Shown here in pieces: positions 21,823-32,339 of a DNA stretch of 43,684 nt (within the stretch, counting starts at the first letter, position 1; every line of letters begins with the position of its first letter). The DNA is taken from positions 1 to 43,684 of the forward strand of contig JAKQJL010000014.1 in the NCBI GenBank assembly GCA_029561175.1, in the 5' to 3' direction. Source of the stretch: a bacterium. GTDB lineage: Bacteria; Patescibacteriota; Microgenomatia; UBA12405. The notes under the pieces were generated by a model that saw only the letters and a program-made list of their open reading frames with translations, did no database searches and was not told the origin of the DNA. The position numbers and the translations under genes are program-made.

Positions 21823-23070
21823 TTAAGGTAAAAGAGGTTCAATAATGCTTTTTAATTTACCGAAGATGCCAGTGAAAGAATTGGCAATTTTTTTGTTGGC
21901 AGATGGAGTGAATTGAACTTCTGTTAAGCCGTATTGTAATAAACCAATAGAGCTAACAAAGGCTGGATTTTGAATATCATCAATTACCCCACCTATTTTG
22001 GGAGGATTAGCAATTCTGACTGGTAAAGGAATTACTTTGGAGCAAGTGTCTTTAATATTTAGTATTTGAGAACCGCCACCAGTTAAGACAATTCCAGAAG
22101 GAATCAGATTGATTAAACCACTTGACTCAATTTGGTTGTAAATAATAGTAAAAATTTCTTCTAATCTAGGTTTAATGATGCCATTAATTGCGGTTTGAAG
22201 AGAGATTTTGTGTTTTTCTTCGGAAATTATGCCAAATTGAGAGATATCAATTTCATCTTCAAATTTTTGAGAATTGTTAAATTTTTCGAGTTTTAATTTA
22301 ACTTTGTCAGCGTCTTCTAAAGAAAGTCGAAGTCCAATTGCCAAATCGTTAGTAACATTGGCTGAACCGACTGGAATTACTGATGAAAAAGCTGGTTTTC
22401 CCTCAGTAAAAATAGTTAAAGAAGTAACAGTGCCACCAATATCAATCAAAGCAATTCCTAATTCTTTTTCAGTATTGGTTAAACAAGCTTTTGCTGAGGC
22501 TAAACCGGAATAAACTAAGCTATCAATTTTAATACCAACATCGTCAAAGCATTTTCGAATATTTTTAATGGCTGGTGATGAGGCAAAAATCAGATGGGAT
22601 TCAAGTTCAAGCTTAGAACCGCTCATGCCGATGGGGTTAATAACTCCGTCTTGATCGTCAACAATGTATTTTCTTGGAATTACATGGATAATTTCCTTGC
22701 CAACAGGAATACTGACTGATTTTGAGGCTTCAATTATTCGAGAAATGTCGTGCTGAATAATTTCGTTGTTGGGTGAGCTGATTGAAACAATACTATGTGA
22801 GTTTTGAGATTCAATATAATTAGCTGCAATTGAAACAACGGCGTTGTTAATTTGAAAACCAGCCATTCTTTCGGCAGCTTCAACACTTTGAGTGATGGCT
22901 TGGGTGGCCTGATCAATATTAACTATTTGTCCTTTTCGAAAACCAGCAGCTGGAGAAGATGAAACTGCCACAATATTGAATCTATCTTCAACATCAAAAT
23001 ATTGACCAATAATGGTAGTTATTTTTGTCGATCCAATGTCGATACCGTTAATTATTCTTGAATGTTGCAT
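21823..23070 (-). CDS. ftsA: cell division protein FtsA
   Basis: GIDIGSTK, IDIGG, VLTGGGS, C-terminal amphipathic helix; ATG 23070 preferred over 23094. Confidence 0.96.
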   Translation of the reverse strand: MQHSRIINGIDIGSTKITTIIGQYFDVEDRFNIVAVSSSPAAGFRKGQIVNIDQATQAITQSVEAAERMAGFQINNAVVSIAANYIESQNSHSIVSISSPNNEIIQHDISRIIEASKSVSIPVGKEIIHVIPRKYIVDDQDGVINPIGMSGSKLELESHLIFASSPAIKNIRKCFDDVGIKIDSLVYSGLASAKACLTNTEKELGIALIDIGGTVTSLTIFTEGKPAFSSVIPVGSANVTNDLAIGLRLSLEDADKVKLKLEKFNNSQKFEDEIDISQFGIISEEKHKISLQTAINGIIKPRLEEIFTIIYNQIESSGLINLIPSGIVLTGGGSQILNIKDTCSKVIPLPVRIANPPKIGGVIDDIQNPAFVSSIGLLQYGLTEVQFTPSANKKIANSFTGIFGKLKSIIEPLLP

Positions 23071-23416
23071 ATGGATGATTTTGAGCAAAATCAATTAAGG
23101 TTAATTGTTTGCCTATTATATTAGCTTTTTTTGAAAGATTTTGTAAGACAACAAATTGAGTATAAATATTTTTTTGGGTAGAAAAAATAATCTTTGTTGA
23201 ATTATCAGAAAATTCAATTTCATTTAAAAATGGACGAAAAACAAGATTTTGATAATTAAAATTTAATTTTGATGAGGTTAATTTAAATATTTGAATTTTT
23301 GAAGAAAAATCTGATGGTTGATTTTTTAAAGTGATTTTAGAGGTGTTTAAATATAGAAATAATTGAATAATAATGATCAATAACGGAAAAACAAAAAGAA
23401 AGTTATACCATTTCAT
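23048..23416 (-). CDS. minimal FtsQ-like membrane protein (positional)
   Basis: one TM; located between murG and ftsA; C-terminal LIDFAQNHP resembles the FtsQ YIDLR..P end; only 122 aa. Confidence 0.55.
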   Translation of the reverse strand: MKWYNFLFVFPLLIIIIQLFLYLNTSKITLKNQPSDFSSKIQIFKLTSSKLNFNYQNLVFRPFLNEIEFSDNSTKIIFSTQKNIYTQFVVLQNLSKKANIIGKQLTLIDFAQNHPYATFKNN

Positions 23417-24464
23417 AAAATAGTTTAAAAAATGGATGAATAGCTGAACTGGGTTTAAAATTTACTTGGTTGTTTACTTTTGATAAACGAAGAATTGAAT
23501 TAACTAATTTAGTAGAAGTGAGCTGATCTTGGTTAATGATAATAATGTTGTTAGGTGATTTGTTTTGTAGCCAGTTGGCATTGAGTTGTTGTTCGTTTTG
23601 TTGACTAAAAGGTAGGGGTATTAAAATAGCTTTTTGATTAAAAGTGAAAATTTCAAAACAAGTGTTGGCACCTGCTCGTCCGATAATTAAGTTGGCATGT
23701 TTAAAAATCCAACCAATATCTTGAGAAGAGATATATTCAGTTTGGTAGTAACGAGAGTGATGATAATTTTGAATGATGTTTTTATTTTTACCAGTTTGAT
23801 GAATGATGGTAAAGTTGGTTAGTTTTGAAAGAGAATTAATCAGATGTTGGTTGATAATCGCCGAACCTTGATTGCCGCCAGTAATATAGATAAGAGGGTA
23901 TTTTTTTATTTGCTTTTGAAGAGGGTTAAAAGTAGATCGGTTGGTTTGATATAGTTGTTGTCTGACTAAATTACCAGTAACTATAGTTTTTGAAGGTGGC
24001 AAATTGTTTTTAGTATCAAAAGAAAGAGCGATTTTATTAACAAACAATGAACAAATTTTGGTGGTTAAGCTAATAGTTAATGTTTGTTCGTGAATAATTG
24101 ATTTAATTTGATTAACTCTTGAAGCGATTATTACAGGAACTGAAACGTAACCTCCAAAAGAAACAACCAGATTTGGCTTAATTTGCCTAATTAAATAAAA
24201 ACTCCTAAAAAAAGAAAATAAAGTTAATGGGATACCTTTAATAGTGTTAAACAAAGAAATTCGATCGAGTTTACCACTGGGTATATTAATAATTTGAATA
24301 TCTTTTTTTTTAAAAACAGGATCGTCAAGATGATTGTCTGAAGAAAATTTATGAGTTAAATAAAAAATTTTCCAAGAAAAATGAGTGTCTTGACGAAGGT
24401 GATTGATTAGTTCAATGGCTGGAGTGTGATGAACTCCGGTGATGATGATGGTTTTGTTGATCAC
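23403..24464 (-). CDS. murG: lipid II GlcNAc transferase MurG
   Basis: ITGVHHTPA, SFGGYVSVP, IHEQ, TGN, TGGNQGS, GRAGANT, EQQLNA; GTG start. Confidence 0.93.
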   Translation of the reverse strand: MINKTIIITGVHHTPAIELINHLRQDTHFSWKIFYLTHKFSSDNHLDDPVFKKKDIQIINIPSGKLDRISLFNTIKGIPLTLFSFFRSFYLIRQIKPNLVVSFGGYVSVPVIIASRVNQIKSIIHEQTLTISLTTKICSLFVNKIALSFDTKNNLPPSKTIVTGNLVRQQLYQTNRSTFNPLQKQIKKYPLIYITGGNQGSAIINQHLINSLSKLTNFTIIHQTGKNKNIIQNYHHSRYYQTEYISSQDIGWIFKHANLIIGRAGANTCFEIFTFNQKAILIPLPFSQQNEQQLNANWLQNKSPNNIIIINQDQLTSTKLVNSILRLSKVNNQVNFKPSSAIHPFFKLFYEMV

Positions 24465-25548
24465 TGTTTTTTAAGTATAACAATTGTTGTTGTCGGTGAA
24501 TATTGGCGACAACTCCTAAACCTAAATATAAACTTACTAAAGAAGAACCGCCGTAAGAAATAAAAGGTAGTGGCATTCCGGTTAGAGGAATTATTGAAGT
24601 AATTGCCCCAAGATTAATTAAAGCTTGAAAAGCAATCCAGAGGCTGATTCCGATAGTAAATAGCTGAGTTGAGTGGTCGGTAAGAGTGTTTGAGAAATTA
24701 ATCAGATGACTAACTAAATACAAATAGGCAAGACAGATGATTAACATACCAATAAATCCTGTTTCTTCACCAATAACAGCAGCAATTGAATCAGTAGATA
24801 CTTTAGGTAGAAACATATATTTTTGATCTGAATTAGCGAAACCTTTACCAAAAATATGGCCTGAAGCCAGGCTGACAATTAGCTGGTTGCTGTGGTAAGC
24901 CTGAGTTGATTGTGGGTTGATTAGTGATTGAAGTCTTTTTAGACGGTATGGTGAGGTAATGGTTAAGATAATACCTAAAAATAAGGCAATAACACCGATA
25001 ATAAAAATAGATTTGATATCACCATTGGCTAGATAAAAAAGAAAAATCGAAATTGTGGCAATTAGAATGGTAGTACTTAGGTTTGGTTCGATAATGATTA
25101 AGAAAAGACCAATTACTAAAGGAATAAAAAAGTGTTTTAAATTAACATTTTTAGTGAGAATGTTGGAAAAATAAAGTATTGAAGTAAATTTAAAAAGTTC
25201 TGATGGTTGAACTCCAAAGAAACCAAAATTTAACCATCGATTGGCACCTAAGATTTTTAATCCAAACTGAGGAATGACAACTAAAAAAAGTAAGAAGAGA
25301 GAAAAATAAAATAATATCGGGGAAAATTTTTTAATTAAAGAATAATCAAGATATCGAATAATAAAAAAAATAGAGAGACCGATTAATGACCAGATTAATT
25401 GTTTTTTGGCGATGCCAAAGCTTACTCCAGTTAAGTTGATAGATTCGAATGGTGAGCTGATTGATAAAAATACTAGACCGATAAAATTTAAGAAAAATAA
25501 GTAACCAAAAATGTGCCAAAAGGATATTGGTTTATTGTTTGTGGTCAT
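24412..25548 (-). CDS. ftsW: SEDS family cell division protein FtsW
   Basis: GANRWL, QPSE, EPNLST, SPYRLKRL, LPKVSTD, PLTGMPLPFISYGGSS; upstream of murG. Confidence 0.93.
   Translation of the reverse strand: MTTNNKPISFWHIFGYLFFLNFIGLVFLSISSPFESINLTGVSFGIAKKQLIWSLIGLSIFFIIRYLDYSLIKKFSPILFYFSLFLLFLVVIPQFGLKILGANRWLNFGFFGVQPSELFKFTSILYFSNILTKNVNLKHFFIPLVIGLFLIIIEPNLSTTILIATISIFLFYLANGDIKSIFIIGVIALFLGIILTITSPYRLKRLQSLINPQSTQAYHSNQLIVSLASGHIFGKGFANSDQKYMFLPKVSTDSIAAVIGEETGFIGMLIICLAYLYLVSHLINFSNTLTDHSTQLFTIGISLWIAFQALINLGAITSIIPLTGMPLPFISYGGSSLVSLYLGLGVVANIHRQQQLLYLKNSDQQNHHHHRSSSHSSH
24474..24482 (-). promoter_or_regulatory. putative internal extended -10 promoter for murG inside the ftsW 3' end
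   Basis: TGTTATACT 9 nt before the murG GTG. Confidence 0.45.
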
Positions 25549-26653
25549 TTAGCAATTTGTTGATGTAAACCTCAGGAATTTCTTGAAAATTTTCGGGTTG
25601 ATCGACCAATTGATGATCAAAATTATATTGGTAAATAGTGGTTTGTTGTTTGTTTTTAAGATTAAGTTGGGCACCTATTAATTCTTGATTAAACCGTTGA
25701 TTTTCTTGCTGATCAGAAATATTAAAATTATGAGGGATAAATGAAAGAAGATGAAAATAAAAAAGTGGGTTGAGCGATGCTTGAATCTCAAGCTGAGTGT
25801 AAAAACTAAAAGAAGCAGTTAAACGAGGATTGCACTCTAAAAGATAAACTTTATTTTGGTTTACAAAAAAGTCTAAACCAAAAAAACCTCGATAATGATT
25901 TTCTTTTAAGATTTCTCCAAAAGAATTAGTAATTTCAAGAACTTGTGATTTTATAGACGAACTAATATTTGCAGGCCATTGACGGCCAACGGTGGTGAAT
26001 GGATTATCAGTAAGTTTTTTAATACCAGTAAATTGAAGTGCTGGTGGACTTTGAAAAAGATGTGAATCAACTAGACAGCAATTATTTAAAAGAGTGTATC
26101 CTGACAAATAGGGTGAAATTTTAATTGGAGTATTGTCGGGGAGCAGTGGTTGAAAATTTTTAAGAAAAAAAGTTGAATTACCTGCCCAACCAAAGTGACT
26201 TTGAATAACTAGAGGGGTTTGAAATTTTTCAAAAGCTTGATTAATGTTATCAGAGGTAAAGGTGGTAATTAAGTGCGGAATAATTGGGATGTTTTTTAAT
26301 GAACAAATTGTGGGAAATTTAATTTTATCTTCAAAAAAACGATTAAGCTTGCTGGAATTGGCGGCGTAAATCCATTGATATTTTTGACAAATTTTCTCGA
26401 TTTTACCAGATGGTTTAAAAGGAATAATTATATTTTTCTTATTAGTTGAGTTAGCCAAATTTTGAAGATAATCAATTGTTTTTTGGTTTTCTATAAAGAC
26501 CCCTGTATTTTTTAAAGATAAGTTTATTTTTAAAGTTATAGGGGAAATTGAATAGAAGTTTGGTAACTGAGGAAGATTAATATCTAAGAATTGATCCAGA
26601 CAAAGATAGACAAAATTATAAGGTAATGATGAGAGATAACTTAGTAAATTCAT
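25532..26653 (-). CDS. ATP-grasp domain ligase of unknown specificity
   Basis: FEDKIKF, PLVIQSHFGWAGNSTFF, YRGFFGLDFF, LLECNPR (ExNxR); lacks the Ddl N-terminal GGxSxE motif. Confidence 0.82.
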   Translation of the reverse strand: MNLLSYLSSLPYNFVYLCLDQFLDINLPQLPNFYSISPITLKINLSLKNTGVFIENQKTIDYLQNLANSTNKKNIIIPFKPSGKIEKICQKYQWIYAANSSKLNRFFEDKIKFPTICSLKNIPIIPHLITTFTSDNINQAFEKFQTPLVIQSHFGWAGNSTFFLKNFQPLLPDNTPIKISPYLSGYTLLNNCCLVDSHLFQSPPALQFTGIKKLTDNPFTTVGRQWPANISSSIKSQVLEITNSFGEILKENHYRGFFGLDFFVNQNKVYLLECNPRLTASFSFYTQLEIQASLNPLFYFHLLSFIPHNFNISDQQENQRFNQELIGAQLNLKNKQQTTIYQYNFDHQLVDQPENFQEIPEVYINKLLNDHKQ

Positions 26654-27450
26654 CTTTTAATGCCAGTAACAATTATTAATGGATAATCTCCGATATTAAG
26701 TGATTGGCTAACTTTCTTAAGGCCTGCTAAGGCTAACCCGGCTTCTGGAGAAACAAAAAGCTGATTATCAAGTAGTTCTTGATAACAGGATTTAACTTCA
26801 GAATCGTTAACCACAACTCCCCCACCATGATTTTTTAAGAGAGAAATAATTTTTTGTTTATTGGGAAGTAACTTTACAGATAAAGCATCGGTAATGGTTT
26901 TCATTTCAGAAGTGTAATCTTGATCAAAATAACTACAAATTGGACAAGAAGATGCCGGTTGGACACCAAAAAGTTTGATATTTTTGGGAAGATTTTTTGA
27001 TATTCCTAATAGAGTGGTGCCACTGCCGATAGGTAAAAAAATACTAGTTACTTGAGGTAGTTGAGTTAAAATGTCGATGGTTATCTTCTGGTAACCGATT
27101 TGAGCGTTGGGATCGGTGGATTGGCGAAGAAAAAAAGCCTGGTTTTGTTTGGCGTATTTAAAAGCTGAACTATTAGGTTGAGTTGTTTTAGTAACTTGAG
27201 ATTTAATCAAACTTAGTTTTGAAGCTGAAATATGAGGAGATACAAAAACCTGAAGTTCTAAATTTAATTGACGGCAAAAATAATCTGCTGAAATAGCGGC
27301 ATTTCCTGAAGAAGCAATTACGAATTTTTGGTAACCGAGTTTAATAGCTTGATTGATTTGAAAAGGGATGGCACGATCTTTGGCAGAGCCAGTAATATTT
27401 TGATCTTCGCGAAGATAATAAATATTTTTTATTTTGGTAATTGGAATCAT
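26650..27450 (-). CDS. fold-type II PLP-dependent enzyme, threonine synthase-like
   Basis: REDQNITGSAKDR (PLP Lys), ASSGNAA, PIGSGTT, SPEAGLALAG, terminal VTG; short (266 aa). Confidence 0.85.
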   Translation of the reverse strand: MIPITKIKNIYYLREDQNITGSAKDRAIPFQINQAIKLGYQKFVIASSGNAAISADYFCRQLNLELQVFVSPHISASKLSLIKSQVTKTTQPNSSAFKYAKQNQAFFLRQSTDPNAQIGYQKITIDILTQLPQVTSIFLPIGSGTTLLGISKNLPKNIKLFGVQPASSCPICSYFDQDYTSEMKTITDALSVKLLPNKQKIISLLKNHGGGVVVNDSEVKSCYQELLDNQLFVSPEAGLALAGLKKVSQSLNIGDYPLIIVTGIKR

Positions 27451-27487
27451 AGATGCGATATTTGATTATATATGTTATATATAGATT

Positions 27488-27643
27488 ATGGAAACAAAAA
27501 TTCTTTGTCCCGATTGTCAAACAGAAATAAAATTTGAAAAAATCGAGGTTGGTGATATTTTAGAATGTGATGAGTGTGGTACTGAAGTAGAAATTATTTC
27601 AGTTGAACCATTGAAGTACACTTTATTGGTTGAGGAGAAGTAG
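27488..27643 (+). CDS. LysW-like zinc-ribbon (amino-group carrier-like) protein, 51 aa, C-terminus EEK
   Basis: hand-translated METKILCPDCQTEIKFEKIEVGDILECDECGTEVEIISVEPLKYTLLVEEK; CxxC..CxxC with LysW-type spacing, acidic; below the ORF-track size cut-off. Confidence 0.85.
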   Translation: METKILCPDCQTEIKFEKIEVGDILECDECGTEVEIISVEPLKYTLLVEEK

Positions 27644-28180
27644 TCGGAAAAAGCCTTCTTTAAATTGTTCTTGATCTTGATTGATGTCGATTTGGCCGTA
27701 ATGAACTCCATGATTACTTAAACTGCTGTGGACATAGATTATTTGTTGATCAATTTTTTCAATAACAAATAAAACGTGATGACCTCGTTTTTGGCGGATT
27801 AAGTCTCCTGTTTTAACATCATTAATGTTAACTTTTTTTGATAAAGGAGAAGACGTGAGCATGTTAGCGTTTGTTCTTCGAACATTCAGTTGGGCATCGA
27901 AATAAAAATTTAACAACTGACAACATAGACCTGAACAATCAATTCCTAAATGATGTTTCTTTTGAAAGCGATAAATTTGATTTGAATCTAGTTCGAGTAT
28001 TTTTACTCCTTCTTGGTTGGCCAATTCGACTGTTTTTAGAGCAATTTCTTTGGCGTTTCCTTTACCTACCAAAGAAGCTTCTGGAGAACTGTTTTTATGT
28101 TTACCGGTATTCATAAAGTAAGGAATACCAATATACTTTGAAATTTCTTGTTTTAGTTCGGTTAATTTAATCCCAGCCAT
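27623..28180 (-). CDS. NlpC/P60-like cysteine peptidase, no signal peptide
   Basis: YIGIPY, GIDCSG, GDLI..HHVLFV..YVHSS (Cys-His-His); ATG 28180 overlapping the mraY end preferred over 28216. Confidence 0.78.
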   Translation of the reverse strand: MAGIKLTELKQEISKYIGIPYFMNTGKHKNSSPEASLVGKGNAKEIALKTVELANQEGVKILELDSNQIYRFQKKHHLGIDCSGLCCQLLNFYFDAQLNVRRTNANMLTSSPLSKKVNINDVKTGDLIRQKRGHHVLFVIEKIDQQIIYVHSSLSNHGVHYGQIDINQDQEQFKEGFFRLLLLNQ

Positions 28181-29196
28181 AGACCTAAAATTGCTAATAT
28201 AAAACCAGCCAACCAAGCTCTAAAGACAATTTTTGGTTCTTCCCAACCATTTCTTTGAAGAGTTAGATGGATTGGAGCAGCTGGGAAAATTTTTCGATGT
28301 AAATAGAGTTTTGAAAAGATTTGAATAGCACTGCTTAAGCCTTCGATAATAAAAATGAATCCAACCACAAGTAAGGGAATTAGTTTTCCTAAAAGAATCG
28401 CAATTAAGGCAAAAGTGGCACCAAAAGACATTGATCCCACATCACCTAACCAAATTCGAGCTGGATAAACATTGAAATATAAAAAAGCAATTAGTGCACC
28501 AATCCATAAGGCTAAAAACAAAGAAATAGGAGTGTCGAGCTGGTTGCTTGAGAGTACCCAAAAAGCAAAAAGTGAAATCATTAAAGTTCCGCAAGATAGA
28601 CCATCAAGACCATCGGTAATATTAAAAAAATTAGCAAAACCGACAATAATTGTGGTAAAAATGGGGATAGAAAATAATCCCAAAGAGACTGGACCCAAAA
28701 AAGGTAGATAGACAAAATTTATACCTAATCGAAAATAAATATGAGCTGAAACTATACCGGCAATTACGAACTGCAAGAGTAGCTTGTGTTTCATTCTTAA
28801 TCCAAAAAAACCAGATTTTTCAAAATTAAAGAATTTTAAAGCATCATCGTATAAACCCAGTAATCCAAAACTGATAAAGGTGAAAAAGATGGCTTCAACT
28901 TCTCGTTGAATTTGAAAGTTATGAGAAATAAAAATATTTGATTGCTGAAGAATAAAAAAAAGAATTGTAAAAAGAACTGTGACTGACACAATAATTAATA
29001 AGCCACCTCCCACTGGTGTACCGGCTTTAATCGCGTGATATTTATCAAAAATCGGAGTTCTTTTGTTTTGAAAATCAAGAGTTTTTTGCTTTTGGCGTTG
29101 GAATTTAAGATGATAGAGAATGTTAATAAAAGGAACAACCAAGACACTGGTGCAAATGAAAGAAAAAAGAAGCAGGCCAAGATAAAATTGGATCAT
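28162..29196 (-). CDS. mraY: phospho-MurNAc-peptide transferase MraY
   Basis: KAGTPVGGG, GLYDD, NITDGLDGL, PARIWLGDVGS, APIH..GWEEPKIV. Confidence 0.96.
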   Translation of the reverse strand: MIQFYLGLLLFSFICTSVLVVPFINILYHLKFQRQKQKTLDFQNKRTPIFDKYHAIKAGTPVGGGLLIIVSVTVLFTILFFILQQSNIFISHNFQIQREVEAIFFTFISFGLLGLYDDALKFFNFEKSGFFGLRMKHKLLLQFVIAGIVSAHIYFRLGINFVYLPFLGPVSLGLFSIPIFTTIIVGFANFFNITDGLDGLSCGTLMISLFAFWVLSSNQLDTPISLFLALWIGALIAFLYFNVYPARIWLGDVGSMSFGATFALIAILLGKLIPLLVVGFIFIIEGLSSAIQIFSKLYLHRKIFPAAPIHLTLQRNGWEEPKIVFRAWLAGFILAILGLWLGLN

Positions 29197-29205
29197 TATT
29201 GATTA

Positions 29206-29212: not shown

Positions 29213-30511
29213 TTAAATTTTAGTAAAAGTCGAGATTATACGGTTTAGAGTGTCTAAACCCTTTTTACCTCCGGAACTAAAATGGACCAAAATGTCTTGA
29301 GGTTTAAGATTGTTTTGGTAATAGTCAATTATTTGTTGGTAATCTGGCAGGTAAGTTATTTTTTTACCTAATTCTAGGTGATAATCTTGAAAAGTAGTTC
29401 TTTGGTCAACAGAAACTGATGGGGAAAATTTTATTTTACTAATAGTTATTTGGGATGCGTTTTTAAACGCCTGATTAAAACCAATTATCGAATTTTTATT
29501 TTGTAAAAAGGAAGCGTGAGGTTCAAAAAAAACTTTAATTTGGTGAGTGGGATATTGATAGTGAATTGCTTCTAAGGCTGAGGCAATTCGATCTTTAGAT
29601 TGAGCAAAATCGTCGATAAAAATAATATTATTAATGATTTTTTTGATTTCTAATCTGCGCTTAATACCACGGTAATGATTTAAAGCTGATTGAATGATTT
29701 TTGGTTTAATTCCTAAGGCGATGGCCATAGTAGTGGCTGCCATAACGTTTTCCTGATTGTGTTTACCAACTAAACAAGAATTAAAAGAAAAATTAAAATT
29801 ATAAGGAAGAGCCTGTGAGTAATTCTTAGAAATTTCTGTGGCTGATGGAGAATTTGGGTTATAAACTAAAATGCCATTTTTAGGTAATCGATTGATAAGT
29901 TTAATAAATGATTGTTTGTTTGAGCTTTGGGAAGGATAGGATTCTTTATGTTCCCAGTCGGCTGAAGTTAATAATAAATGGGTTAGCGGGTAATAATGAA
30001 ATTTTGCTTGAGTATCGAGACCATTAATAGATTCATCGGCTTCAATAATTGAATAGTCCCCAGTACTAGTGGTTAAAGAGGGAAGATGATTAATAAAACT
30101 GGCACCAACCATATAACTAGGGTTGAGTTTGGCATATTTAAAAATCCAGATTAATAATGAGGTGATGGTTGATTTTCCATAAGATCCAGCGACTAAAATG
30201 TTGATTTTTTTATCTAAAAGCTGACTTAGGTACTCAGTGGCGGATATATAAGGATAGTGGTTTTTAGTAATTAAAGCGAATTCTTCTTGACATTTGGTAA
30301 ATGATTTAAACGAAGAACCGATAATAAATAGGTCAATTTTTTGATAATCTATGACTTTATTAACAGGAATTTTGGATTTTAAAAGAATGGTGCTTATAGG
30401 AGGATAAATTTGATCTTGATCTGATCCAGATATTTGGTGGCCAAGTCGAGTTAATTCTAAAGCTAAAGGTGTGGTCATGTTGCCAGCGATTCCTAAAATA
30501 TGAATTCTCAT
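29213..30511 (-). CDS. Mur ligase, Mpl/MurC-like (closer to murein peptide ligase Mpl)
   Basis: MRIHILGIAG..GSDQDQIYPP, VAGSYGKST, IEADE, GIKRRLE, DDFAQ, FSSGG; ATG 30511 forms an ATGA overlap with the upstream stop. Confidence 0.82.
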   Translation of the reverse strand: MRIHILGIAGNMTTPLALELTRLGHQISGSDQDQIYPPISTILLKSKIPVNKVIDYQKIDLFIIGSSFKSFTKCQEEFALITKNHYPYISATEYLSQLLDKKINILVAGSYGKSTITSLLIWIFKYAKLNPSYMVGASFINHLPSLTTSTGDYSIIEADESINGLDTQAKFHYYPLTHLLLTSADWEHKESYPSQSSNKQSFIKLINRLPKNGILVYNPNSPSATEISKNYSQALPYNFNFSFNSCLVGKHNQENVMAATTMAIALGIKPKIIQSALNHYRGIKRRLEIKKIINNIIFIDDFAQSKDRIASALEAIHYQYPTHQIKVFFEPHASFLQNKNSIIGFNQAFKNASQITISKIKFSPSVSVDQRTTFQDYHLELGKKITYLPDYQQIIDYYQNNLKPQDILVHFSSGGKKGLDTLNRIISTFTKI

Positions 30512-31098
30512 AATTGTTGCCAATGATTATTTTGATAATATTCAAAACCAGGAAGGTTTCTTTTGTAATAACCGATTTTTTTATCAAGATCGAATCTACC
30601 CAAATAACAAAAATCTAAATTATTATTGGCACTATCAATGATTGTTTCAATTACCATTCTGATGGGTAAATCCTGATGAGCAAAATCTGGATTATAAAAA
30701 ACATAGGCAATATGGGAAAATTTTTGATGATAATAGCAAATGGCATAGCCAACTATTTGATCTTTAAGTTTCCAAATAAAAAGTTGATTAAAAATATGGT
30801 GATTAAAGATATATTTAACAGAACTAATTGGAAAATCCCAGCCTAAATTTTTAATCCAATGATGAATAGTTTTTTGAGTAGACAAATCGAAGGAAAAATC
30901 TGCCAAATTTATTTTTTCAAAAGAAAAATCAGTGGTTTTTCTAATGATGCGACGATTTTCAGAAGAAAGAGTAAATTGTGAGAGATTAGATCGACAACTT
31001 GATTCTTGATAGAAGAGTTGACGATCGTTACGTTGAGGTAGTAATCCTTGCTGGTATAAAGATTGATAATCTTGAGTTGCGAGAATATTGAATGTCAT
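30508..31098 (-). CDS. ATE1/Bpt-like aminoacyl-tRNA-dependent transferase (GNAT-like fold)
   Basis: SCRSNLSQFTLSSENRRIIRK and AYVFYNPDFAHQDL...LDFCYLG...YYK match ATE_N/ATE_C patterns; ATGA overlaps at both ends. Confidence 0.68.
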   Translation of the reverse strand: MTFNILATQDYQSLYQQGLLPQRNDRQLFYQESSCRSNLSQFTLSSENRRIIRKTTDFSFEKINLADFSFDLSTQKTIHHWIKNLGWDFPISSVKYIFNHHIFNQLFIWKLKDQIVGYAICYYHQKFSHIAYVFYNPDFAHQDLPIRMVIETIIDSANNNLDFCYLGRFDLDKKIGYYKRNLPGFEYYQNNHWQQL

Positions 31099-32339
31099 TG
31101 ATTTAATTTTAATCTAAAAGCAGTTCTAAAAGCTTCGGCATCTGACCAGGGGTATTCAGTATTACCCAATAAAATAGTAGTTTCGTGGCCTTTACCGCAA
31201 GCAACAATAGTATCGTGAGGTTTAGCAAGACTAATTGCTTGGTTAAAAGCTTCTTGACGGTTGGGGACATTATAATAAGAAAAGAGTTGTTTTTTAACTT
31301 TTGATTGATTGATACCATTGATTATCTGTTGGTTTATATCTTCAATTTTTTCATTTCGAGTATCATCAGAGGTAATGAAAGCGATGTTTGACAATTCGGA
31401 AACTACTTCTCCCATTAAGGGTCTTTTTGATTGATCCCGGCCACCGGTAGCGCCAAAAATAACAATTAATCTACCTGAAGTAGTTTCTCTTAATGATAAT
31501 AAAGTTTGTTTTAATGCTGCTGGAGTATGAGCAAAATCAACAATAGTTCTAATATTTAGATCGTTTTCAATATTTTGTCGACGACCTTTTGTTTCTGGAA
31601 ATTCAAGAATATTTTTGGCAACTAATTGATGATCAATATTTAGATCAGTTAACAAAGAATAGGCTGCCAGAATATTGTAAGCTTGATATTGATATGGAGA
31701 ATTGGTGATTATTTGTTTTTGATTAACTAAAAAACTTAGAGATTTTGGGGTTATTTTAAGATTTTTAGCTTGGAAATCTGATTTGGTATTAAGACTATAG
31801 GAAATTAATTTTTTAGAATCAAAAATGGATTTAATGGTTTTGGCAGAAGAATCGTCTTGATTAAAAATAATTTTGGAAGAATTTTTTAATAGTTTTAATT
31901 TGGCTTCTAAGTATTCTTTTTGAGAGGGAAAATCATCTAAATGTTCATGAGATAAATTGGTAAAAATTCCATAATTAAATTTAAACCCAAAAAATCGAAA
32001 TTGATCGAGACCGTGTGCGGTGGTTTCAATAACGGCATATTTTTTACCTTCTTTTTTCATTTTAATAAGAATAGGAAGGAGGTTCTTGGGATGAGGAGAA
32101 GTGGTGTGTAATCCGGGGCTATTGATGGTGTTAATTGAAAAAGATGGAAAACCAAGACGATTTAATAATTCATCAATGAGAACGGTGGTGGTGGTTTTAC
32201 CATCAGTTCCAGTGACGCCAATTAAGAAAAAATGACGTTGAGGAAAGCCATAACGAAGAGAATAAAATAGGCTATTTGGTAAATGCCAACAGTAATTCTT
32301 TATTTTTTGGAAAAGGTATTTAATCCAAATATTAGGCAT
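31095..32339 (-). CDS. murE: MurE-like ligase lacking the N-terminal domain
   Basis: GVTGTDGKTTT, FTNLSHEHLD, VDFAHTP, RDQSKRPLMG, CGKGHE; specificity motif DDTR. Confidence 0.9.
   Translation of the reverse strand: MPNIWIKYLFQKIKNYCWHLPNSLFYSLRYGFPQRHFFLIGVTGTDGKTTTTVLIDELLNRLGFPSFSINTINSPGLHTTSPHPKNLLPILIKMKKEGKKYAVIETTAHGLDQFRFFGFKFNYGIFTNLSHEHLDDFPSQKEYLEAKLKLLKNSSKIIFNQDDSSAKTIKSIFDSKKLISYSLNTKSDFQAKNLKITPKSLSFLVNQKQIITNSPYQYQAYNILAAYSLLTDLNIDHQLVAKNILEFPETKGRRQNIENDLNIRTIVDFAHTPAALKQTLLSLRETTSGRLIVIFGATGGRDQSKRPLMGEVVSELSNIAFITSDDTRNEKIEDINQQIINGINQSKVKKQLFSYYNVPNRQEAFNQAISLAKPHDTIVACGKGHETTILLGNTEYPWSDAEAFRTAFRLKLNQ

What the first reader, a model, noticed from the sequence alone, without database searches (positions are those of the whole stretch)
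27488..27643. Unannotated LysW-like carrier protein ending in EEK instead of EDWGE
Seen: a 51-aa acidic ORF missing from the track, with CPDC...ECDECG-E-EI-S-EP. It is divergent from the PLP/ATP-grasp pair across only 37 bp and overlaps the NlpC/P60 3' end by 21 nt. Established: LysW/AmCP carriers load substrate on the gamma-carboxyl of the C-terminal Glu of EDWGE through a LysX-type ATP-grasp ligase. Inference: a terminal Lys cannot do this, so the chemistry would differ (an epsilon-amine acceptor, the terminal carboxyl, or Glu-Glu-Lys as a proteolytically released precursor). Glu-Lys is also the position 2-3 dipeptide of many stem peptides. No lysine or arginine pathway genes are in the window.
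Basis: partly seen in the sequence, partly recalled or inferred. Interest (0 to 1): 0.82.

Follow-up and report, generated by a model that had tools for sequence, protein, structure and literature searches.

The report
Lysine-ended LysW-like carrier in wall-synthesis cluster
A tiny zinc-binding protein, related to the LysW amino-acid carrier but always ending in lysine, sits with three enzymes in the cell-wall gene cluster of many ultra-small bacteria, where it seems to replace the usual enzymes that supply and attach D-glutamate.

Summary
The 51-aa ORF (27488..27643, +) is real. It matches Pfam Zn_ribbon_LysW above the cut-off and shows a coding pattern of conservation. It recurs in 62 of 62 related loci between a ThrC-like PLP enzyme plus ATP-grasp and an NlpC/P60 peptidase inside the dcw cluster. 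The terminal Lys is present in 62 of 62. In distant relatives the tail varies (VEK, VQK, DEGK, NLGK, one lineage EEKG), and only the Lys is kept. All 15 Lys-ended copies sampled across the phylum lie beside the PLP gene; 0 of 5 others do. In one family an otherwise syntenic cluster holds either MurI-MurD or NlpC/P60, a MurD-like ligase, the carrier, PLP and ATP-grasp. No MurI above cut-off occurs in 48 of 48 carrier-positive genomes, against 125 of 401 overall. One locus fuses a D-glutamate-cyclase-like domain to the NlpC/P60. A fold of carrier with ATP-grasp passes its controls (0.69 against 0.00). Best reading, inferred: a LysW in reverse, whose Lys epsilon-amine holds glutamate during conversion to D-Glu and coupling to L-Ala. 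No description was found in print.

The parts
27488..27643 (+). LysW-fold zinc-ribbon carrier, 51 aa, tail ...LLVEEK with conserved terminal Lys ('LysW-K')
   Evidence: PF21344 43.1 bits. Terminal K in 62 of 62 related loci. Coding pattern of codon variation.
26650..27450 (-). Fold-type II PLP enzyme (PALP), ThrC-like, 266 aa, divergent from the carrier gene across 37 nt
   Evidence: PF00291 134 bits. Best NCBIfam and PDB relatives are threonine synthases, far below their cut-offs. The PLP lysine K24 and the SSGN loop are conserved in 34 sequences. Adjacent in 62 of 62 loci.
25532..26653 (-). ATP-grasp ligase, 373 aa (PRK06524 / biotin-carboxylase-like, not RimK/LysX type); its start overlaps the PLP stop by 4 nt
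   Evidence: Fused to the PLP enzyme as one 626-aa ORF in L028. Predicted to bind the carrier, with the tail at residues 47-50, 78-80, 277 and 338.
27623..28216 (-). NlpC/P60 cysteine peptidase; the likely start is the Met 12 codons in (MAGIKL...), and that start has no hydrophobic N-terminal segment
   Evidence: PF00877 27.9 bits. The DCSG Cys, a His and an Asp are invariant in 21 sequences. Present in 61 of 62 loci. Fused to a D-glutamate-cyclase-like domain in L126.
28162..29196 (-). MraY (context: the cassette lies between mraY and ftsW, the usual place of murD)
   Evidence: PF00953 103 bits; synteny.
29213..30523 (-). MurC/Mpl-like Mur ligase with N-terminal UDP-binding domain, below both family cut-offs
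   Evidence: murC 186 bits (cut-off 335) and mpl 154 bits (cut-off 389). One ORF with the ATE-like gene in L117 and with NlpC/P60 in L108.
30508..31098 (-). ATE/Bpt-like aminoacyl-tRNA-protein transferase homologue, 196 aa
   Evidence: PF04377 20.3 bits (below its cut-off of 25) and arginyltransferase NCBIfam models at 1e-7. Conserved next to the MurC-like gene.
31095..32339 (-). MurE without the N-terminal domain (context)
   Evidence: TIGR01085 296 bits (cut-off 257); the match starts at profile position 77-97. No PF01225 match.
24412..25548 (-). FtsW (context, downstream border of the cassette)
   Evidence: ORF; named from its sequence and place (recalled, no family scan). It matches the same position in the related loci by tblastn.

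Best explanation
The ORF encodes a LysW-fold carrier protein whose working group is the lysine at the end of a short tail. It belongs to a conserved cassette: carrier, ATP-grasp ligase, ThrC-like PLP enzyme and cytoplasmic NlpC/P60 peptidase. The cassette also holds either a MurD-like ligase (type B) or an ATE-like transferase with a MurC/Mpl-like ligase (type A, this window). In the dcw cluster of many Patescibacteria the cassette does the job of MurI, and in type A of MurD as well: it provides D-glutamate and joins it to L-alanine as residue 2 of the peptidoglycan stem peptide. Proposed steps, all inferred. (1) The ATP-grasp binds the zinc ribbon, takes the tail into its active site and ligates the gamma-carboxyl of L-Glu to the epsilon-amine of Lys51. 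(2) The PLP enzyme, which needs the free alpha-amine that this tether leaves, inverts C-alpha to D. (3) The alpha-amine of the tethered D-Glu is acylated with L-Ala. In type B the MurD-like ligase uses UDP-MurNAc-L-Ala. In type A the ATE-like enzyme uses Ala-tRNA, and the MurC/Mpl-like ligase then adds UDP-MurNAc. (4) NlpC/P60, a family known for cutting gamma-D-Glu-diamino-acid bonds, frees the product and the carrier. (5) MurE and MurF go on as usual. Shown: the gene, the fold family, the conserved Lys, the synteny, the exchange with MurI-MurD and the fusions. Predicted: binding to the ATP-grasp. Inferred: every chemical step and the identity of the cargo.
For: The gene is real and LysW-fold (51 of 51 Lys-ended relatives match PF21344). 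Terminal K is present in 62 of 62 related loci; position -3 is E in 62 of 62; position -2 is E 58, Q 2, T 2. Synteny in those 62 loci: PALP 62 of 62; ATP-grasp 58 of 62, the other 4 loci ending inside PALP; NlpC/P60 61 of 62, the remaining locus ending shortly after the ORF. Across the phylum the Lys-ended profile hits 48 of 401 genomes. Of the 20 loci fetched, 15 carry a Lys-ended ribbon and all 15 have the PLP gene beside it; 14 of 15 have the ATP-grasp in the locus. The 5 ribbons with other tails have neither. In 36 metagenome loci, the 4 Lys-ended ribbons and the one ending Lys-Gly carry cassette genes, and the EDWGE and EEWD types carry none. Cassette exchange within family f52: G111 has NlpC/P60, MurD-like, carrier, PALP and ATP-grasp where G202 has MurI and MurD. 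The flanking genes are 56-81% identical, while MurD against MurD-like is 30%. MurI above its cut-off: 0 of 48 carrier-positive genomes against 125 of 401 overall. MurD above its cut-off: 2 of 61 genomes of the window's family, both in the one genus where 0 of 3 genomes have the carrier; the carrier is in 55 of 61. No MurD at E<=1e-40 in the 7 of 7 phylum-scan genomes whose locus shows an ATE-like hit (type A). In 7 of 7 type B loci a MurD-like ligase (214-266 bits, cut-off 212, N-terminal domain poorly matched) lies next to the carrier gene. Fusions: PALP with ATP-grasp (L028), ATE-like with MurC-like (L117), NlpC/P60 with MurC-like (L108), and D-glutamate-cyclase-like domain (201 bits) with NlpC/P60 (L126). 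Own genome, 83% complete: no MurD, Asp_Glu_race, Ala_racemase_N or Aminotran_4 match, but Ddl and MurF are present. Complex of ATP-grasp, ATP and carrier: score 0.69, best of 3 controls 0.00; this mark was reached by 58 of 80 solved complexes and 2 of 110 mismatched pairs; the runs agree in at least 55% of contacts; partner pLDDT is at least 78. Tail residues 48-51 touch 47-50, the invariant K80 region, R277 next to the conserved E273/N275, and 338. The EEKG variant inside an intact cassette (L146) favours the side-chain amine over the alpha-carboxylate. Precedent that MurI-MurD can be replaced by another cassette: MurD2/MurL (PMC8788868, section 4 read).
Against: No chemistry was tested, so cargo, linkage and order of steps are guesses. 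The PLP enzyme looks like threonine synthase, not like a known racemase, and many members have Thr, not Ser, before the GN of the SSGN loop. The complementarity is not strict. 237 of 401 Patescibacteria lack a MurI match at E<=1e-10, most of them without the cassette. 9 of 61 genomes of the window's family have an Asp_Glu_race protein together with the carrier. The MurD-positive genus g10 has neither MurI nor the carrier. In about half of the carrier-positive genomes a MurD-like gene coexists, so the cassette is not simply a MurD substitute. The D-glutamate-cyclase-like fusion is a single locus; 8 other NlpC/P60 partners scanned lack it, and the window's genome has no such domain. The complex pass may reflect likeness to solved LysW-enzyme complexes, and my own alignments and the ATP ligand differ from the calibration. 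Foldseek puts the ATP-grasp nearest to biotin carboxylase and PurK (TM 0.55-0.62), whose chemistry is carboxylation of an amine, not peptide ligation. Kin are not independent, so the tallies overstate the support.
Confidence: 0.4

Rival explanations
1. There is no covalent carrier role. The PLP enzyme is a free-standing racemase or D-amino-acid-forming enzyme, and the ATP-grasp ligates a free amino acid to a nucleotide precursor. That could be residue 2 itself, or a side-chain branch on Lys as the D-aspartate ligase of Enterococcus faecium does (recalled). The zinc ribbon would be a non-covalent subunit, regulator or substrate mimic whose Glu-Lys end resembles the gamma-D-Glu-L-Lys end of the tripeptide precursor.
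For: The same synteny and the exchange with MurI-MurD fit this reading. The genome shows no known racemase although Ddl and MurF are present. Binding to the ATP-grasp is predicted, but a covalent link is not.
Against: A mere subunit does not explain a terminal Lys kept across families in which every other tail position changes. It also does not explain the constant tail length (25 codons in 61 of 61). The predicted pose puts the tail, not only the globular part, against conserved active-site residues. An ATE-like enzyme, whose relatives modify proteins, and a cytoplasmic NlpC/P60 are left without a role.
Confidence: 0.25
2. This is a C-terminal extension scaffold. The ATP-grasp activates the alpha-carboxylate of the terminal Lys and adds amino acids to it, as RimK does on S6 or LysX on LysW's side chain, or as peptide-scaffold pathways do (recalled). 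The added residue is then modified and cut off by NlpC/P60.
For: A free C-terminal carboxylate is the one carboxylate present in nearly all family members. The tail is predicted to enter the ATP-grasp site. A peptidase is in the cassette.
Against: An amino acid joined through its alpha-amine offers the PLP enzyme no free amine. The EEKG lineage keeps an intact cassette although its Lys is not terminal. The conserved residue is specifically Lys (AAA or AAG) where any residue would supply a carboxylate.
Confidence: 0.12
3. The PLP enzyme carries out a beta- or gamma-replacement in which the carrier's Lys epsilon-amine attacks a PLP-bound aminoacrylate or vinylglycine intermediate. This would resemble SbnA with glutamate, or CysM with the CysO thiocarboxylate (recalled). 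It would build a diamino acid for the stem peptide on the protein; the ATP-grasp and NlpC/P60 then process and release it.
For: The PLP enzyme is ThrC/CysK/SbnA-like rather than racemase-like (threonine synthase models 77 bits, SbnA family 43 bits). These small genomes seem to lack amino-acid synthesis (no Semialdhyde_dh). MurE is unusual in lacking its N-terminal domain.
Against: It does not explain the exchange with MurI-MurD, the constant MurD-like or ATE-like partner, or the D-glutamate-cyclase-like fusion. The product would stay bound through a secondary amine that a peptidase cannot cut.
Confidence: 0.1
4. The ORF has no role in the pathway. It would be a generic zinc-ribbon regulator, or an antisense ORF kept only by constraints on the overlapping and neighbouring genes.
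For: No RNA cover of the ORF was found and no promoter-like signal above chance. The protein is very small.
Against: Only 21 of 156 nt overlap another gene, and in many loci none do. It has a coding pattern of substitution. It matches the LysW Pfam model above its cut-off. It stays beside the PLP gene across at least 11 families even where gene order around it changes, including a co-directional operon in L126.
Confidence: 0.05
5. One reading: Glu-Glu-Lys or Glu-Lys is cut from the protein and used as a building block of the stem peptide.
For: A peptidase gene overlaps the 3' end. In the window's family E-E-K is nearly constant.
Against: Positions -2 and -3 are not kept in other families (VEK, VQK, DEGK, NLGK). 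The ribosomal product is alpha-linked and all L. One 51-aa protein per stem peptide would be very costly. MurE is present.
Confidence: 0.03

Closest known systems
LysW / ArgW amino-group carrier proteins (AmCP) with LysX/ArgX, LysZ, LysY, LysJ, LysK
   Same: The zinc-ribbon fold family is the same (PF21344 above its cut-off; best solved matches 3wwl and 5k2m). It is a small acidic protein with a flexible C-terminal tail, paired with an ATP-grasp enzyme that is predicted to take the tail into its active site. A hydrolase in the cluster could release the product.
   Different: The tail ends in Lys, not in EDWGE with a terminal Glu, and is about 5 residues shorter. It therefore offers an amine (or an alpha-carboxylate), not a gamma-carboxylate: a carboxyl-group carrier rather than an amino-group carrier. 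The ligase is not RimK/LysX type. There is no LysZ/Y/J/K set. The context is the dcw cluster, not lysine or arginine synthesis. LysW basics are taken from passages of PMC12998189; the EDWGE motif is seen in hits.
[quoted passage not shown]
   Same: Organisms without glutamate racemase or D-amino-acid aminotransferase use a divergent MurD-like ligase plus an ATP-consuming partner encoded beside it to install D-Glu (PMC8788868, section 4 read). Here too a divergent MurD-like gene goes with the cassette, and MurI is not found.
   Different: [quoted passage not shown] Here there are a carrier protein, a PLP enzyme, an ATP-grasp and a peptidase, and in type A no MurD at all. No sequence comparison with MurD2 or MurL was made.
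CysO-CysM and related protein-carrier plus fold-type II PLP systems (recalled, not read here)
   Same: A small carrier protein presents a group at its C-terminus to a fold-type II PLP enzyme, and a peptidase frees the amino acid made on it.
   Different: Those carriers are ubiquitin-like and end in Gly-Gly thiocarboxylate, activated by adenylation. This one is a zinc ribbon that ends in Lys and is paired with an ATP-grasp.
ATP-grasp ligases that acylate a lysine epsilon-amine: D-aspartate ligase of Enterococcus faecium with its racemase; graspetide ligases (recalled, not read here)
   Same: An ATP-grasp joins a side-chain carboxyl of Asp or Glu to a Lys epsilon-amine. The enterococcal enzyme is paired with a racemase and acts in peptidoglycan precursor synthesis.
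   Different: Their acceptor Lys lies in the nucleotide precursor or in a ribosomal peptide core, not at the end of a LysW-fold carrier. No sequence relation was tested.

Membership tests
LysW/AmCP (TIGR01206 lysW; PF21344 globular domain) | Four-Cys zinc-ribbon globular domain of the LysW type | tested here: met
   PF21344 43.1 bits, cut-off 27. 51 of 51 Lys-ended relatives match it. Profile against PDB: LysW chains 3wwl and 5k2m are best.
LysW/AmCP (TIGR01206 lysW; PF21344 globular domain) | Full-length equivalog score, including the C-terminal tail | tested here: not met
   TIGR01206 43.7 bits against a cut-off of 53.2, matching only profile positions 3-41 of 54. NF041070 23.7 bits against 75.
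LysW/AmCP (TIGR01206 lysW; PF21344 globular domain) | C-terminal EDWGE with a terminal Glu whose gamma-carboxyl takes the substrate's amino group | tested here: not met
   The tail is ...LLVEEK. Terminal K in 62 of 62 related loci. Canonical ...EDWGE tails are seen in other hits of the same searches.
LysW/AmCP (TIGR01206 lysW; PF21344 globular domain) | Partner ligase of the RimK/LysX/ArgX ATP-grasp type | tested here: not met
   The neighbouring ATP-grasp matches PF02655 and NF005096 (PRK06524), not PF08443. No LysX or RimK chain appears at E<=1 in the PDB. Foldseek top hits are biotin carboxylase and PurK. Two RimK-type genes lie elsewhere (contig C24) in a different conserved cluster.
LysW/AmCP (TIGR01206 lysW; PF21344 globular domain) | Co-occurrence with LysZ/LysY/LysJ/LysK-type enzymes | tested here: not met
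   No Semialdhyde_dh (LysY/ArgC) match in the genome, which is 83% complete. None is among the 11 neighbours examined in the window. LysZ, LysJ and LysK were not searched on their own.
LysW/AmCP (TIGR01206 lysW; PF21344 globular domain) | Covalent loading of a substrate on the tail | not testable with these tools
   Needs intact-mass MS. Only binding to the ATP-grasp is predicted.
Generic zinc-ribbon regulators | Best match to a non-LysW zinc-ribbon family; no conserved enzymatic neighbours | tested here: not met
   All other zinc-ribbon Pfam models score below their cut-offs. The enzyme neighbours are conserved.
MurD2/MurL alternative D-Glu pathway | A MurL epimerase gene beside a MurD2 gene | not tested
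   No MurL or MurD2 sequence was at hand; the comparison is by logic only.

The most novel reading that the evidence does not exclude
A protein-tethered route to the peptidoglycan stem peptide. A LysW-fold protein working in reverse (a carboxyl-group carrier) holds glutamate by its gamma-carboxyl on the epsilon-amine of the tail lysine. On the carrier the glutamate is turned into D-Glu by a ThrC-like PLP enzyme and receives L-Ala. In the window's type that L-Ala comes from Ala-tRNA through an ATE-like transferase, so the dipeptide is built in the N-terminal direction, is then joined to UDP-MurNAc by an Mpl-like ligase and is cut free by a cytoplasmic NlpC/P60. This would be the first carrier-protein-dependent, partly tRNA-dependent synthesis of the stem-peptide core, and a third way to obtain D-Glu in the cell wall.
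Probability: 0.3. Interest if true: 0.92.

Novelty: new variant of a known kind. Interest (0 to 1): 0.82.

Why it matters
The cytoplasmic steps of peptidoglycan synthesis (MurA-F, MurI, Alr, Ddl) count among the most conserved pathways in bacteria. Only one alternative for the D-Glu step is in the papers I read (MurD2/MurL, PMC8788868). Here a five- or six-gene cassette built around a LysW-fold protein with an inverted functional group stands in the murI-murD place in many Patescibacteria: 55 of 61 genomes of the window's family and 48 of 401 across the phylum. If the carrier reading holds, three things follow. Carrier-protein-mediated amino-acid chemistry would extend from lysine and arginine synthesis to cell-wall assembly. 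A new carrier logic would be shown, with an amine rather than a carboxylate as the handle. Roles would be found for an ATE-like transferase and a cytoplasmic NlpC/P60. It would also explain how genomes without a recognisable MurD or glutamate racemase build a wall, and so correct metabolic reconstructions that score the pathway as incomplete. Every step can be tested with proteins of 51 to 440 residues expressed in E. coli.

Tried and rejected
Single-sequence AlphaFold of the ATP-grasp gave pLDDT 31 and was useless. It was repeated with a 59-row alignment.

Foldseek against the PDB gave only generic ATP-grasp neighbours. The pdb_via_wide library was not on the machine.

Sigma-70-like sites around the ORF are no more frequent than in shuffles: 4 against a mean of 3.1. 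There is no promoter evidence either way.

Expression: the runs that hold this DNA are two DNA data sets, one of which may be the source. Two RNA-labelled runs hold small shares. Laid on 25500-29200, their contigs cover only 26421-26535 and 27896-28295, and nothing covers the ORF. Contigs show presence only, so this says nothing about expression.

The idea that the cassette simply replaces MurD was dropped. 24 of the 48 carrier-positive genomes have a MurD match at E<=1e-40, and in 7 of 7 type B loci a MurD-like gene lies beside the carrier.

The idea that it replaces alanine racemase was dropped. Alr is present in 26 of 61 genomes of the family irrespective of the carrier.

A tree of 97 ribbon cores (40 columns, tails removed) is poorly resolved. 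The Lys label is clustered (13 changes against a shuffled mean of 32.4; 0 of 500 shuffles as low), but one origin is neither shown nor excluded.

The RimK-type ATP-grasps of the genome (contig C24) lie with 7TM_transglut and ATPgrasp_ST genes, not with the carrier. They are not excluded as partners, but nothing links them to it.

Literature: searches found no paper on such a system, and the three papers listed do not treat it (only PMC8788871954's relative PMC8871954 was opened: nothing relevant). Search terms were: LysW + peptidoglycan + ATP-grasp; MurD + Patescibacteria + peptidoglycan; LysW + candidate phyla radiation; glutamate racemase + candidate phyla radiation + peptidoglycan; amino-group carrier protein + ATP-grasp + C-terminal; LysW + amidoligases; ATP-grasp + threonine synthase + peptidoglycan + zinc ribbon. 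The 2009 survey of ATP-grasp amidoligases by Iyer and colleagues (recalled) is not held and may bear on this. Supplements were not consulted.
Full report
THE OBSERVATION. The window holds an ORF at 27488..27643 on the + strand. It is 51 codons long, runs from ATG to TAG, and ends ...LLVEEK. It has two Cys pairs (CPDC, CDEC) and, by my count, 14 acidic and 5 basic residues. It lies 37 nt from the start of a PLP-enzyme gene on the other strand and overlaps the 3' end of an NlpC/P60 gene by 21 nt.

The ORF is not a chance frame. It matches Pfam Zn_ribbon_LysW above the gathering score (43.1 bits against 27). A profile of it and 16 homologues finds LysW chains 3wwl and 5k2m as the best solved relatives (E 5.7e-8 and 7.2e-8). 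In 61 orthologues the third codon position varies most (entropy 0.52/0.26/1.33). The terminal Lys is written AAA 36 times and AAG 25 times, and the tail length is fixed at 25 codons after the second CxxCG in 61 of 61.

THE WINDOW'S FAMILY. The genome (698 kb, 43 contigs, 83% complete) belongs to a Patescibacteria family whose public relatives are mostly labelled Candidatus Shapirobacteria. A scan of one genome per species returned 63 loci. One of them (L064, Granulicella) has a long acidic tail and none of the neighbours.

In the other 62 the order is MurG, FtsW, ATP-grasp, PLP, then the small gene on the opposite strand, then NlpC/P60, MraY, MurA in many loci, MurC-like, ATE-like and MurE. 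The PLP gene is present in 62 of 62. The ATP-grasp is present in 58 of 62, and the other four loci end inside the PLP gene. NlpC/P60 is present in 61 of 62, and the remaining locus ends shortly after the ORF.

The tail ends in K in 62 of 62 and has E at -3 in 62 of 62. Position -2 is E in 58, Q in 2 and T in 2.

BEYOND THE FAMILY. A profile search of 1.84 billion representatives gave 653 hits at E<=1e-3. Of the best 150, 45 end in E-[EQTD]-K and 9 in another K. 16 fit a loose acidic, Trp-containing tail pattern, 7 of them ending in DWGE. All 51 Lys-ended members aligned match PF21344. With the tails removed, the Lys label is clustered on a weakly resolved tree (13 changes against 32.4 when shuffled).

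In 401 genomes spread over the phylum, the Lys-ended profile hits 48. I fetched 20 of these places. 15 hold a Lys-ended ribbon, and all 15 have the PLP gene beside it; 14 of 15 have the ATP-grasp in the locus. The 5 ribbons with other tails have neither; one of them is a canonical ...EDWGE LysW.

The tails of the 15 read EEEK, LLVEK, LYVQK, LMIEK, LMIQK, NEEK, DEEK, DEGK and NLGK. Only the Lys is common to all.

A metagenome scan with another Lys-ended subgroup (FEEEEK) gave 36 loci. The four Lys-ended ribbons (L126, L129, L133, L140) and one ending EEKG (L146) carry cassette genes. The EDWGE and EEWD types carry none. The EEKG lineage (also P0160) keeps a complete cassette although its Lys is not the last residue.

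WHAT THE CASSETTE STANDS FOR. The window's genome has three Mur ligases: MurE, the MurC-like one, and MurF beside Ddl. It has no MurD above the cut-off and no match to Asp_Glu_race, Ala_racemase_N or Aminotran_4.

In 61 genomes of the family, MurD above its cut-off occurs in 2. Both belong to genus g10, the only genus with more than one genome in which the carrier was found in none (0 of 3). The carrier is found in 55 of 61.

Across the phylum, MurI above its cut-off is found in 125 of 401 genomes but in 0 of the 48 carrier-positive ones; three of the 48 have weak matches at 1e-11 to 1e-17.

The clearest case is family f52.
- G111 reads MraY, a T2SSG-like gene, amidohydrolase, PgeF-like, NlpC/P60, MurD-like, then the carrier on the opposite strand, then PLP, ATP-grasp, FtsW, MurG, MurC, MurB.
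- G202 reads MraY, the T2SSG-like gene, amidohydrolase, a PgeF remnant, MurI, MurD, FtsW, MurG, MurC, MurB.
- The shared genes are 56-81% identical, except the T2SSG-like gene at 40% and MurB, cut by the locus end, at 48%.
- The two MurD genes are 30% identical. The G202 MurD matches TIGR01087 over positions 1-440 (376 bits). The G111 one matches only positions 77-422 (257 bits).

So {MurI, MurD} and {NlpC/P60, MurD-like, carrier, PLP, ATP-grasp} are alternatives at one place.

TWO ARCHITECTURES. Type B has the MurD-like ligase next to the carrier gene. This holds in 7 of 7 loci examined, with scores of 214-266 bits, just above the cut-off of 212, and an N-terminal domain that is poorly matched. 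Type B has no ATE-like gene.

Type A, the window's type, has an ATE-like gene and a MurC/Mpl-like ligase instead. The genomes of the 7 of 7 phylum-scan type A loci have no MurD match at E<=1e-40.

Fusions tie the parts together.
- PLP with ATP-grasp as one 626-aa ORF in L028; in the window the two genes overlap by 4 nt.
- ATE-like with MurC-like, 688 aa, in L117.
- NlpC/P60 with MurC-like, 695 aa, in L108.
- In L126, a D-glutamate-cyclase-like domain (PF14336, 201 bits) with the NlpC/P60 domain, directly between the carrier gene and the MurD-like gene.

This last fusion is a single case. 8 other NlpC/P60 partners scanned lack the domain, and the window's genome has none.

THE PROTEINS.
- ATP-grasp. 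It folds with high confidence when given an alignment (pLDDT 96.5, pTM 0.93). It has no close solved relative by sequence (best E 0.49). By fold it is nearest to biotin carboxylase and PurK (TM 0.55-0.62). It is not RimK/LysX type.
- PLP enzyme. It is fold-type II and nearest to threonine synthases, far below their cut-offs. The Schiff-base Lys, the SSGN loop and the GSG phosphate loop are conserved in 34 sequences.
- NlpC/P60. It keeps the DCSG Cys, a His and an Asp in 21 of 21 sequences. From the likely start (MAGIKL...) it shows no hydrophobic leader in the translation, so it is probably cytoplasmic.
- Complex. A prediction of ATP-grasp, ATP and carrier scored 0.69, with 0.00 as the best of 3 controls. 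That mark was reached by 58 of 80 solved complexes and 2 of 110 mismatched pairs. The runs agree in at least 55% of contacts and the partner's pLDDT is at least 78. The ribbon (residues 20-38) sits on residues 82-87 and 101-105. Tail residues 48-51 touch 47-50, 78-80 (K80 is invariant), R277 (next to the conserved E273 and N275) and 338. The pass supports binding but does not show it. Solved LysW-enzyme complexes exist, so it may partly reflect that likeness.

HOW IT MOST LIKELY WORKS (inference). A fold-type II PLP enzyme needs a free alpha-amine on its substrate. The only tail group common to all family members is the lysine, and in one lineage it is not terminal, so its epsilon-amine is the likeliest handle.

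An ATP-grasp can join a carboxylate to that amine. Glutamate tied by its gamma-carboxyl keeps its alpha-amine and alpha-carboxylate free for PLP chemistry, here inversion to D-Glu. The tethered residue would also look like an N-terminal Glu of a protein, which is the acceptor of ATE/Bpt-type transferases (recalled).

That would give the ATE-like enzyme of type A a role: adding L-Ala from Ala-tRNA. The MurC/Mpl-like ligase would then attach UDP-MurNAc. In type B the MurD-like ligase would couple UDP-MurNAc-L-Ala to the tethered D-Glu. NlpC/P60 enzymes typically cut gamma-D-Glu-diamino-acid bonds (recalled), which is the bond that must be cut to free the product.

The scheme gives every conserved gene a role, explains the exchange with MurI-MurD and fits the D-glutamate-cyclase-like fusion. 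I put the general claim at about 0.6: a Lys-handled carrier of a cassette that provides residue 2. I put the full scheme at about 0.3-0.4.

AGAINST IT. No chemistry has been tested. The PLP enzyme is ThrC-like, not racemase-like. MurI is missing from most Patescibacteria anyway (237 of 401 at E<=1e-10). 9 of 61 family genomes carry an Asp_Glu_race protein as well as the carrier. Genus g10 has MurD but neither MurI nor the carrier. The tallies count related genomes.

The rivals are: a non-covalent subunit or mimic; extension at the alpha-carboxylate; PLP-driven replacement onto the Lys amine; a released precursor; and no function. They are set out with their tests in their own section.

COMPARISON AND NOVELTY. 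The protein has the LysW fold but fails the family's defining features: the full-length equivalog score, the EDWGE tail with terminal Glu, a LysX-type ligase and the LysZ/Y/J/K partners. It may work like a LysW with the polarity of the handle reversed. The nearest functional precedent for replacing MurI-MurD is MurD2/MurL (PMC8788868, abstract and section 4 read), which uses neither a carrier nor PLP. Eight full-text searches found no description of this system. A 2009 survey of ATP-grasp amidoligases that might touch on it is not held.

No RNA evidence for the ORF could be obtained.

Noticed in passing
G000 contig C24, locus L162:3010-7190: A separate conserved cluster holds a 7TM_transglut membrane protein, an ATPgrasp_ST protein with a C-terminal Zn_protease-like region, and two RimK-type ATP-grasps in a row. 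They are the only RimK-type ligases in the genome. Nothing links them to the carrier.
   Followed up: partly
window 31095..32339 (-) and G000 contig C36 (L066:904-2076): MurE (414 aa) and MurF (390 aa) both lack a match to the N-terminal domain of their families: the profile matches start at about position 77-116, and MurE has no PF01225. The MurC-like ligase keeps that domain.
   Followed up: partly
Family f1, 61 genomes: Alanine racemase is found in only 26 of 61 genomes of the family and is missing from some that are 99-100% complete. The window's genome has Ddl and MurF but no Alr. The source of D-Ala is open, and the PLP enzyme of the cassette is a candidate.
   Followed up: partly
L104:3422-5745 and L125:6632-8643 (family f52): An amidohydrolase (NF006560/PRK09061-like, 162 bits) and a PgeF/Cu-oxidase_4 protein sit inside the dcw cluster between mraY and murD, both with and without the cassette.
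   Followed up: no
L120:7893-8168 (G258, Patescibacteria family f15): A canonical LysW with an ...EEEDWGE tail occurs in a Patescibacteria genome, without the PLP and ATP-grasp neighbours. Both tail types therefore exist in the phylum.
   Followed up: no
L114-L116 (family f88): LysW-like ribbons with yet other tails (…LFVEE, …EKDDFF, …ELEDEV) lie between mutS and a Mur-ligase-like gene of about 410 aa, with no PLP enzyme beside them.
   Followed up: no
L064:5953-6195 (Granulicella chromosome): A LysW-like protein of 80 aa has a long Asp/Glu tail ending ...EDEDA and none of the cassette genes within 6 kb.
   Followed up: no
L126:4338-5804 (-): In the one locus where the carrier and its enzymes are co-directional, a B12-binding radical SAM gene lies just upstream on the other strand, next to TPR and DUF2142 genes. 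No dcw genes were seen in the 12 kb held.
   Followed up: no
window 23048..23416 (-) to 21823..23094 (-): Between MurG and FtsA there is only a 122-aa ORF with a hydrophobic start where FtsQ would be expected. It was not analysed.
   Followed up: no
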